Below are positions 44,001-47,000 of a DNA stretch of 64,000 nt, one piece after another. The DNA comes from a virus (lineage: Duplodnaviria; Heunggongvirae; Uroviricota; Caudoviricetes). The stretch lies in IMG/VR virus record IMGVR_UViG_2630968933_000007, positions 53,025 through 117,024 of that record; one strand, 5' to 3'. The number at the start of each line of letters is the position of its first letter. Position 1 is the stretch's first letter. The position numbers were made by a program.

Positions 44001-47000
44001 ATTACCAGCCGCTGGGCAACAGTGACCCGGCTCATACCGCAACCGCGCCCGGCGGATTGAGTAAGAAAACGCCAGCAATGACTCCGTTGATGCCGGATAC
44101 CTCCACCCGTAAGCTGGTTGCGTGGGATGGCACCACCGACGGTGCTGCCGTTGGCATTCTTGCTGTTGCTGCTGACCAGACCAGCACCACGCTGACGTTC
44201 TACAAGTCCGGCACGTTCCGTTATGAGGATGTGCTCTGGCCGGAGGCTGCCAGCGACGAGGCGAAAAAACGGACCGCGTTTGCCGGAACGGCAATCAGCA
44301 TCGTTTAACCTGACCCTTCATCACTAAAGGCCGCCTGTGCGGCTTTTTTTACGGGATTTTTTTATGTCGATGTACACAACCGCCCAGCTGCTGGCGGCAA
44401 ATGAGCAGAAATTTAAGTTTGATCCGCTGTTTCTGCGTCTCTTTTTCCGTGAGAGCTATCCCTTCACTACGGAGAAAGTCTATCTCTCACAAATTCCGGG
44501 ACTGGTAAACATGGCGCTGTACGTTTCGCCGATTGTTTCCGGTGAGGTTATCCGTTCCCGTGGCGGCTCCACCTCTGAATTTACGCCGGGATATGTCAAA
44601 CCCAAGCATGAGGTGAATCCGCAGATGACCCTGCGTCGCCTGCCGGATGAAGATCCACAGAATCTGGCGGACCCGGCTTACCGCCGCCGTCGCATCATCA
44701 TGCAGAACATGCGAGACGAAGAGCTGGCCATTGCTCAGGTCGAAGAGATGCAGGCAGTTTCTGCCGTGCTCAAGGGCAAATACACCATGACCGGTGAAGC
44801 CTTCGATCCGGTTGAGGTGGATATGGGCCGCAGTGAAGCGAATAACATCACACAGTCTGGCGTCACGGAGTGGAGCAAGCGTGACAAGTCCACGTATGAC
44901 CCGACCGACGATATCGAAGCCTACGCGCTGAACGCCAGCGGCGTGGTGAATATCATCGTGTTTGACCCGAAAGGCTGGGCGCTGTTCCGTTCCTTCAAAG
45001 CCGTCAGGGAGAAGCTGGATACCCGTCGCGGCTCTCATTCCGAACTGGAGACAGCGGTAAAAGACCTGGGCAAAGCGGTGTCTTATAAGGGAATGTATGG
45101 CGATGTGGCCATCGTCGTGTATTCCGGACAGTACGTGGAAAACGGCGTCAAAAAGAACTTCCTGCCGGACAACACGATGGTGCTGGGTAACACTCATGCA
45201 CGCGGTCTGCGCACCTATGGCTGTATTCAGGATGCGGATGCATTGAGTGAGGGTATTAATGCGTCTCCCCGTTATCCGAAAAACTGGAAGACATCCGGCG
45301 ATCCGGCGCGAGAGTTCACCATGATTCAGTCAGCACCGCTGATGCTGCTGGCTGATCCTGATGAGTTCGTGTCCGTTCAACTGGCGTAATCATGGCCCTT
45401 CGGGGCCATTTTCTCTCTGTGGAGGAATCCATGACGAAAGATGAACTGATTGCCCGTCTCCGGTCGCTGGGTGAGCAACTGAACCGTGATGTCAGCCTGA
45501 CGGGGACGAAAGAAGAACTGGCGCTCCGTGTGGCAGAGCTGGAAGAGGAGCTTGATGACACGGATGACGCAGCCGGTCTGGACACGTCTGTCAGCCCGGA
45601 AAATGCGCTGACCGGACATGAAAATGAGGTGGTATCAGCGCAGACGGATACCGTGACTGATACGGCTGCTCTGGTCACGGTTGTGGCACTGGTGACGCTG
45701 CATACTGATGCACTTCACGCCACGCGGGATGAGGCTGTGGCATTTGTGCTGCCGGGAACGGCGTTCCGTGTCTCTGCCGGTGTGGCAGCTGAAATGACAG
45801 CGCGCGGCCTGGCCAGAATGCAATAACGGGAGGCGCTGTGGCTGATTTCGATAACCTGTTCGATGCTGCCATTGTCCGCGCCGATGAAACGATACGCGGG
45901 TACATGGGAACGTCAGCCACCATGACATCCGGTGAGCAGTCCGGCGCAGTAATACGTGGTGTTTTTGATGACCCTGAAAATATCAGCTATGCCGGACAGG
46001 GCGTGCGCGTTGAAGGCTCCAGCCCGTCCCTGTTTGTCCGGACTGATGATGTGCGGCAGCTGCGGCGTGGAGACACGCTGACCATCGGTGAGGAAAACTT
46101 CTGGATAGACCGGGTTTCGCCGGATGATGGTGGAAGCTGTCATCTCTGGCTTGGGCGGGGCGTACCGCCTGCCGTTAACCGTCGCCGCTGAAAGGGGGAT
46201 GTATGGCCATAAAAGGTCTTGAGCAGGCCATTGAAAACCTCAGCCGTATCAGCAGAACGGCGGTGCCTGGTGCCGCCGAAATGGCCATTAACCGCGTTGC
46301 TTCATCCGCGATATCGCAGTCGGCGTCACAGGTTGCCCGTGAGACAAAGGTACGCCGGAAACTGGTAAAGGAAAGGGCCAGGCTGAAAAGGGCCACGGTC
46401 AAAAATCCGCAGGCCAGAATCAAAGTTAACCGGGGGGATTTGCCCGTAATCAAGCTGGGTAATGCGCGGGTTGTCCTGTCCCGCCGCAGGCGTCGTAAAA
46501 AGGGGCAGCGTTCATCCCTGAAAGGTGGCGGCAGCGTGCTTGTGGTGGGTAACCGTCGTATTCCCGGCGCGTTTATTCAGCAACTGAAAAATGGCCGGTG
46601 GCATGTCATGCAGCGTGTGGCCGGGAAAAACCGTTACCCCATTGATGTGGTGAAAATCCCGATGGCGGTGCCGCTGACCACGGCGTTTAAACAGAATATT
46701 GAACGGATACGGCGTGAACGTCTTCCGAAAGAGCTGGGCTATGCGCTGCAGCATCAACTGAGGATGGTAATAAAGCGATGAAACATACTGAACTCCGTGC
46801 AGCCGTACTGGATGCACTGGAGAAGCATGACACCGGGGCGACGTTTTTGATGGTCGCCCCGCTGTTTTTGATGAGGCGGATTTTCCGGCAGTTGCCGTTT
46901 ATCTCACCGGCGCTGAATACACGGGCGAAGAGCTGGACAGTGATACCTGGCAGGCGGAGCTGCATATTGAAGTTTTCCTGCCTGCTCAGGTGCCGGATTC

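What the first reader, a model, noticed from the sequence alone, without database searches (positions are those of the whole stretch)
46854..46858. One-base deletion in a T tract splits tail terminator gene U
The N-terminal part (MKHTELRAAVLDALEKHDTGATF) and the C-terminal 60 residues (…PDSELDSWMESRIYPVMSD…ITYEM) both match gpU but are in different frames. The locus is 395 nt where 396 nt is expected, and a T5 run sits at the switch point.
Basis: partly seen in the sequence, partly recalled or inferred. Interest (0 to 1): 0.5.

Follow-up and report, generated by a model that had tools for sequence, protein, structure and literature searches.

The report
Frameshifted prophage tail terminator gene U
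A lambda-like prophage in the probiotic E. coli strain G1/2 has lost one T from a six-T run in its tail terminator gene U, an ordinary and apparently real recent inactivating mutation that NCBI's annotation of the same strain already marks as a pseudogene.

Summary
Window 46854-46858 reads TCGCC; the T5 run at the frame switch is 46844-46848. The U locus (46778-47172) is 395 nt. Frame 0 keeps 23 native residues and stops at 47039-47041. gpU residues 24-131 (108 residues, not 60) continue in frame +2. Adding one T restores a 131-aa protein that is 129/131 identical to lambda gpU.

The window is an exact piece of JPKH01000024.1, the 2014 Illumina/Velvet draft of E. coli G1/2 (Symbioflor 2). A later finished genome of the same strain (NZ_CP060083.1) also has T5 and is annotated 'frameshifted'. 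The sister clones G6/7 and G8 have T6, and G1/2 differs from G6/7 by this single base over 25.6 kb.

The best reading is a genuine, very recent slippage deletion that makes U a pseudogene. T5 is rare elsewhere: 5 of 3,541 complete E. coli records, partly in error-ridden assemblies, and none in the viral or metagenome collections. Nothing supports programmed recoding. This is ordinary and already known. The two other tail-gene frameshifts in the window (H, J) are absent from the finished genome and are probably draft artefacts.

The parts
46778..47172 (+). U pseudogene (lambda-type tail terminator gpU), 395 nt instead of 396
   Evidence: The repaired product matches PF06141 at E=6e-62 and is 129/131 identical to lambda gpU 1Z1Z/3FZ2/3FZB. 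The same locus is annotated 'phage minor tail U family protein, frameshifted' (H4P46_RS12890) in NZ_CP060083.1.
46844..46848 (+). T5 run, the site of the 1-nt deletion; relatives have T6 (ACG TTT TTT GAT)
   Evidence: In alignment A1 this is the only variable column. T-run lengths were read by regex in 9 loci.
46778..47041 (+). Frame-0 truncated ORF of 87 aa: 23 native gpU residues plus 64 out-of-frame residues, stop TGA 47039-47041
   Evidence: It has no Pfam hit, and the exact product is absent from the 15-billion-protein collection.
46846..47172 (+). Frame +2 segment encoding gpU residues 24-131 (108 aa) plus the stop codon. It has no start codon before GTG 46990.
   Evidence: The 60-aa ORF from 46990 hits PF06141 positions 74-130 at E=9e-25.
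46203..46781 (+). Z (tail protein) immediately upstream. Its TGA stop (46779-46781) overlaps the U start ATG (46778-46780) as ATGA.
47180..47920 (+). V (major tail protein) immediately downstream, intact, preceded by GAGG

Best explanation
This is a genuine, strain-specific one-base deletion (T6 to T5) in gene U of a lambda-like prophage inserted at the Qin site of E. coli G1/2 (DSM 16441, Symbioflor 2). The most likely cause is replication slippage in the homopolymer (inferred). Translation starts normally at the U ATG, which is coupled to the Z stop. It leaves the gpU frame after Phe23 and ends 64 codons later, so no tail terminator is made (shown from the sequence).

From lambda genetics, a U-defective phage cannot cap the tail tube or join tails to heads, so this prophage should not make infectious particles (inferred, established knowledge of gpU). 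The mutation is very recent. The sister clones G6/7 and G8, from the same human donor, carry T6 in an otherwise identical prophage.
For: 1. The window is an exact substring of JPKH01000024.1. That accession is the Illumina GA IIx / Velvet draft of strain G1/2 (PMC4358396).
2. The later finished assembly of the same strain, NZ_CP060083.1, also has T5. It is clearly not copied from the draft: it lacks the draft's 25-bp duplication, 10-bp deletion and SNP patches, and it contains an ISEc12 that the draft lacks.
3. Finished G6/7 and G8 have T6 and an intact U (WP_001619143.1). G1/2 and G6/7 differ by this single column over 25.6 kb.
4. At the two other homopolymers where draft and finished G1/2 disagree, finished G1/2 agrees with G6/7 and G8. 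At U the two G1/2 assemblies agree with each other against the sisters. That is the pattern of a real strain difference.
5. The second U-like copy in G1/2 is too divergent to match the 71-nt context (2 places, 1 place), so cross-mapping from a paralogue is unlikely.
Against: - I could not find how NZ_CP060083.1 was sequenced or polished, so the two assemblies may not be fully independent at the level of reads.
- The draft contig is unreliable elsewhere in this prophage.
- The same T5 occurs as an evident artefact in error-ridden long-read assemblies: FELIX_MS516, strain 10, AP027446, AP027450 and others.
- No raw reads were examined.
- The loss of infectivity is inferred from lambda genetics and was not tested. 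The prophage may already have been non-inducible.
Confidence: 0.85

Rival explanations
1. Sequencing or assembly artefact: the strain really has T6 and an intact U, and the missing T is a homopolymer miscall.
For: T5 appears in assemblies where nearly every phage gene is frameshifted. In such assemblies U is hit by 1-nt deletions at several positions. The draft contig has other discrepancies with three finished sister genomes, including two homopolymer lengths. T5 was found in none of the GTDB representatives, IMG/VR or JGI metagenome contigs, whereas T6 was found in at least 120 IMG/VR contigs.
Against: Two differently built assemblies of the same strain, one Illumina/Velvet and one finished, both show T5, while the finished sisters show T6. 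With T5 in about 0.14% of records, two independent errors at the same base are very improbable. The finished assembly did not inherit the draft's other peculiarities.
Confidence: 0.08
2. Mixed culture: the G1/2 stock is polymorphic (T5 and T6 subpopulations), and both assemblies report the majority or a sampled clone.
For: The sister clones carry T6 in an otherwise identical prophage. The strains have been kept and propagated separately since 1956.
Against: There is no direct evidence for it. Both assemblies give T5. This would still be a real mutation, differing from the best explanation only in its frequency.
Confidence: 0.04
3. Functional recoding or phase variation: gpU is still made by ribosomal -1 slippage or transcriptional slippage at the T run, or the run acts as an on/off switch.
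For: A -1 slip on G_UUU_UUG would formally regenerate ...T F F D G... (read from the sequence). T5 is the only structural-gene lesion in three unrelated clean genomes.
Against: G UUU UUG is not an X XXY YYZ heptamer. The downstream RNA folds no better than shuffles (z=0.12). The run is only 5-6 nt, below the lengths known to give efficient transcriptional slippage or phase variation (established knowledge). The frameshifted arrangement is not conserved: 5 of 3,541 records, and none in IMG/VR against at least 120 with T6.
Confidence: 0.02

Closest known systems
Bacteriophage lambda gpU, tail terminator (Pfam PF06141 Phage_tail_U; PDB 1Z1Z, 3FZ2, 3FZB)
   Same: The repaired product is 131 aa and 129/131 identical to lambda gpU. 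It gives a full-length PF06141 match. It differs from lambda U at 6 of 396 nt. It has the same Z-U-V-G-T-H order and the same ATGA overlap with Z.
   Different: One T of the T6 run is missing, so only the first 23 residues are made in frame. It is a pseudogene, not a working member.
H4P46_RS12890 in E. coli G1/2 finished genome NZ_CP060083.1 (PGAP: phage minor tail U family protein, frameshifted)
   Same: It is the same strain, the same prophage and the same T5 allele. It is 100% identical over window 46600-47300.
   Different: Nothing differs at U. Elsewhere the finished genome lacks the draft's H duplication and J deletion, and it has ISEc12 in lom.
Lambda G-T programmed -1 frameshift
   Same: It is a frame change inside a tail-gene cluster. 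The genuine G-T site GGGAAAG is present and intact in this window at 48334.
   Different: The U site has no canonical slippery heptamer, no stimulatory structure and no conservation. It is a mutation, not a recoding signal.

Membership tests
Phage_tail_U / lambda gpU tail terminator | Full-length sequence match to PF06141 and to solved gpU structures | tested here: met
   After adding one T: PF06141 E=6.3e-62 over residues 1-129; 1Z1Z E=1.3e-84, 129/131 identical.
Phage_tail_U / lambda gpU tail terminator | Position between Z and V in a lambda-type tail module | tested here: met
   Order Z 46203-46781, U 46778-47172, V 47180-47920, then G, T, H.
Phage_tail_U / lambda gpU tail terminator | Continuous reading frame of about 131 codons (a working gene) | tested here: not met
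   The locus is 395 nt. The frame is lost after codon 23 at the T5 run 46844-46848, with a stop at 47039-47041.
Phage_tail_U / lambda gpU tail terminator | Hexamer formation and tail-termination activity | not testable with these tools
   This needs protein work or phage assembly assays.
Programmed ribosomal frameshift site | Canonical slippery heptamer X XXY YYZ in the incoming frame | tested here: not met
   The site reads G TTT TTG.
Programmed ribosomal frameshift site | Stable downstream stimulatory RNA structure | tested here: not met
   Window 46849-46930: MFE -24.1 kcal/mol against a shuffle mean of -24.5, z=0.12.
Programmed ribosomal frameshift site | The two-frame arrangement is conserved among relatives | tested here: not met
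   T5 occurs in 5 of 3,541 complete E. coli records. It is absent from IMG/VR, JGI metagenomes and GTDB representatives. T6 occurs in at least 120 IMG/VR contigs.
Phase-variable contingency locus (homopolymer switch) | Long homopolymer (typically 8 or more) with both lengths common among close relatives | tested here: not met
   The run is 5-6 nt, and the off-length occurs in about 0.14% of records, partly in error-ridden assemblies.
Homopolymer sequencing artefact | Not reproduced in an independent assembly of the same strain | tested here: not met
   The Illumina draft JPKH01000024.1 and the finished NZ_CP060083.1 both have T5, while the finished sisters have T6. Independence at the level of reads could not be verified.

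The most novel reading that the evidence does not exclude
The T6 run at codons 23-24 of lambdoid U genes may be a recurrent slippage hot spot through which E. coli lineages independently disarm otherwise intact prophage tail modules. T5 is the only structural-gene lesion in G1/2, O157:H7 strain 4276 and SC422. The observed frequency, 3 clean cases in about 3,500 records, is no higher than residual homopolymer error in long-read assemblies would give, so this is not supported. It is also not excluded.
Probability: 0.05. Interest if true: 0.3.

Novelty: already known. Interest (0 to 1): 0.07.

Why it matters
It matters little beyond this strain. It tells users of the Symbioflor 2 genomes that the U frameshift in G1/2 is a reproducible strain marker. 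It is a single-base difference from the sister clones G6/7 and G8 across this prophage, not a draft error, and it predicts that this prophage cannot make infectious particles in G1/2. It is also a caution about the draft: the two other tail-gene frameshifts in the same draft contig are not reproduced in the finished genome.

Tried and rejected
1. I first read the window as a different strain from G1/2, with a decaying tail module broken in U, H and J, because it differs from NZ_CP060083.1 by a 25-bp duplication, a 10-bp deletion, SNP patches and a missing IS. I rejected this once the truncated H and J products traced the window to JPKH01000024.1, the 2014 draft of G1/2 itself.

2. The exact 87-aa frameshift product is not on record anywhere. 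This is uninformative, because gene callers call a 51-aa or 60-aa C-terminal piece instead.

3. Exact-pattern scans for T5 in GTDB representatives, IMG/VR and JGI metagenomes each gave 0 hits. They show rarity and gave no independent carriers.

4. I tested whether the draft's intact lom is a copy of another prophage in G1/2. No complete genome has it at 100% (best 98.7%), so a simple paralogue swap is not shown. The origin of the draft's mosaic patches stays open.

5. Literature searches for how NZ_CP060083.1 was produced found nothing.

6. Recoding was rejected on site sequence, RNA fold and lack of conservation.

Full report
**What is in the sequence**

The lambda-type gene U occupies window 46778-47172 on the + strand and is 395 nt long. 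Its ATG (46778-46780) overlaps the TGA of the upstream gene Z (46779-46781) as ATGA. V starts at 47180, behind a GAGG.

Frame 0 reads MKHTELRAAVLDALEKHDTGATF, then 64 unrelated residues, and stops at TGA 47039-47041. Frame +2 is open from 46831 and encodes FDGRPAVFDEADF...ITYEM, which is gpU residues 24-131, ending at the normal stop 47170-47172. The two frames meet inside a T5 run at 46844-46848.

They lie between this run and a second T5 run at 46865-46869. That second run is also T5 in lambda and is not the lesion. The 'C-terminal 60 residues' is only the ORF from the first GTG at 46990; the homology in that frame covers 108 residues.

**Identity of the gene**

Adding one T gives a 396-nt ORF.
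- Its 131-aa product matches Pfam PF06141 (Phage_tail_U) over its whole length, E=6.3e-62.
- It is 129/131 identical to lambda gpU of PDB 1Z1Z, 3FZ2 and 3FZB.
- It differs from lambda U at 6 nucleotides.
- The exact repaired protein is an existing allele seen on 380 contigs.

In a nine-sequence alignment of the first 124 columns, the only variable column is one T of this run. Lambda, G6/7 and G8 have T6. The window and five other records have T5.

**Where the window comes from**

Window 46600-47300 is 100% identical to E. coli G1/2, NZ_CP060083.1. PGAP annotates that locus as 'phage minor tail U family protein, frameshifted' (H4P46_RS12890).

Over the rest of the prophage the window differs from that record:
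- a perfect 25-bp tandem duplication in the tape measure gene H (49951-49975 repeated at 49976-50000);
- a 10-bp deletion in J (CAGTGCTACC missing after 54381);
- several SNP patches;
- no ISEc12 in lom.

I used the truncated H and J products as lineage-specific probes. Both are on record in a single assembly, GCA_000768405.1, contig JPKH01000024.1, and the fetched loci are exact substrings of the window.

JPKH is the 2014 draft of strain G1/2 itself (DSM 16441). It is one of six E. coli strains of the probiotic Symbioflor 2, isolated from one donor and stored separately since 1956. It was sequenced on an Illumina GA IIx, assembled with Velvet, and its gaps were closed with PCR products (PMC4358396). 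So the window and NZ_CP060083.1 are two assemblies of the same strain.

**Real mutation or artefact**

The two G1/2 assemblies were clearly built differently. The finished one has none of the draft's duplication, deletion or SNP patches, and it has an IS that the draft lacks. Both nevertheless show T5.

The finished genomes of the sister clones G6/7 and G8 have T6 and an intact U. G1/2 and G6/7 differ across 25.6 kb of this prophage by that one column only.

The draft and finished G1/2 also disagree at two other homopolymers: T4 against T3 at 20782-20785, and A8 against A6 at 25320-25327. At both, finished G1/2 agrees with G6/7 and G8, so the draft is the odd one out. At U the pattern is the opposite: the two G1/2 assemblies agree with each other against the sisters. 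That is what a true strain-specific difference looks like.

The second U-like copy in G1/2 is too divergent to match the 71-nt context (2 places, 1 place), so paralogue cross-talk is unlikely.

I put about 0.85 on a genuine mutation. The remaining doubt is that I could not find how NZ_CP060083.1 was produced, and that I examined no raw reads.

**How common is T5**

A 71-nt query centred on the run matches 3,541 complete E. coli records. Only 5 are exact T5:
- G1/2, O157:H7 strain 4276 and SC422, where U is the only broken structural gene;
- strain 10 and FELIX_MS516, where many or nearly all neighbouring genes are frameshifted.

T5 is absent from the GTDB species representatives, from IMG/VR and from JGI metagenome contigs.

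The 51-aa C-terminal U fragment is called in 178 blocks of the protein collection. In the loci I read, U is broken by 1-nt deletions at several positions (48, 72, 117, 172) or by an IS66, mostly in assemblies with many broken genes. So T5 can certainly be an artefact elsewhere. Its overall frequency, about 0.1%, needs no special hot spot.

**Mechanism and consequence**

Loss of one base from a six-base homopolymer is the classic product of replication slippage (inferred). The result is an 87-aa product with 23 native residues and no Pfam signal.

From established lambda genetics, gpU forms the hexameric ring that stops tail-tube polymerisation and provides the head-joining surface. U mutants make aberrant long tails and no infectious phage. 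The prophage in G1/2 is therefore predicted to be unable to form infectious particles (inferred, not tested).

In the finished genome, all other head and tail genes from nohA/terminase to J are annotated intact. lom is split by ISEc12 and the side tail fibre gene is truncated. Both of those lesions are shared with G6/7 and G8.

V has its own ribosome-binding site about 140 nt downstream of the premature stop, so strong polarity is not expected (inferred).

**Recoding considered and rejected**

A -1 slip on G_UUU_UUG would formally regenerate the wild-type protein. Four points argue against it:
- the site is not an X XXY YYZ heptamer;
- the downstream 82 nt fold no better than shuffled sequence (z=0.12);
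- the run is too short for efficient transcriptional slippage or phase variation (established knowledge);
- the two-frame arrangement is not conserved.

The genuine lambda G-T slippery site, GGGAAAG, is present and intact at 48334.

**Comparison with the known, and verdict**

This is lambda gpU in every tested respect except that the reading frame is broken. It is a pseudogene of a known family, and NCBI's pipeline has already flagged it in the finished genome of the same strain.

The finding is ordinary: novelty 'already known', interest about 0.07.

The most useful by-product is a caution about the draft. The H and J frameshifts, the intact lom and several SNP patches in this draft contig are not reproduced in the finished genome. 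No complete genome carries the H duplication junction or the J deletion.

Noticed in passing
window 49951-50000: A perfect 25-bp tandem duplication (GAAATATACCGAAGAGGCGCAGAAG twice) splits the tape measure gene H into ORFs of 455 and 414 aa. It is absent from the finished G1/2 genome and from every complete E. coli genome searched (the junction-specific query gave no hit). It is probably a contig-join or gap-closure artefact of the draft.
   Followed up: partly
window 54381/54382: A 10-bp deletion (CAGTGCTACC) splits the tail tip gene J into ORFs of 228 and 918 aa. It is absent from finished G1/2, G6/7 and G8, and no complete genome matches the deletion junction.
   Followed up: partly
window 57229-57828: lom is intact in the draft, but it is split by an ISEc12 (IS21 family) at the same point in the finished genomes of G1/2, G6/7 and G8. 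Ten mismatches cluster around the insertion point (57246-57657). No complete genome holds this lom at 100% (best 98.7%), so its origin, a mosaic assembly or a real variant, is unresolved.
   Followed up: partly
window 20782-20785 and 25320-25327: Two homopolymers differ between the draft and the three finished sister genomes (T4 against T3, A8 against A6). The draft is the odd one out, which shows that it is not error-free at homopolymers.
   Followed up: yes
window 18509 to about 19690: There is a dense patch of substitutions in the prophage exonuclease gene relative to finished G1/2 (most of the 182 substitutions in the left 33 kb). The 823-aa ORF stays open. This looks like sequence from a paralogous prophage, either a recombinant or a chimeric assembly.
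   Followed up: no
window 48334-48340: The canonical lambda G-T programmed -1 frameshift heptamer GGGAAAG is present at the end of G, with the T frame open downstream (G 47936-48358, T frame 48340-48774).
   Followed up: partly
window about 16672-62800: The prophage sits at the Qin site: int at 16672-17967, and a truncated ydfJ-like MFS transporter at 62867-64000. It combines Qin-type genes (dicA/B/C, relBE, hokD, cspB/F/I, ydfK, pinQ, tfaQ) with a complete lambda-like head and tail module. In effect it is a full-length relative of the K-12 Qin remnant.
   Followed up: no
L137 54-3156; hit H44 (NZ_CM192120.1): In other E. coli genomes the same U gene is interrupted by insertion sequences: an IS66 family element in OZ038650.1, and an IS200C in strain MEW.
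   Followed up: no
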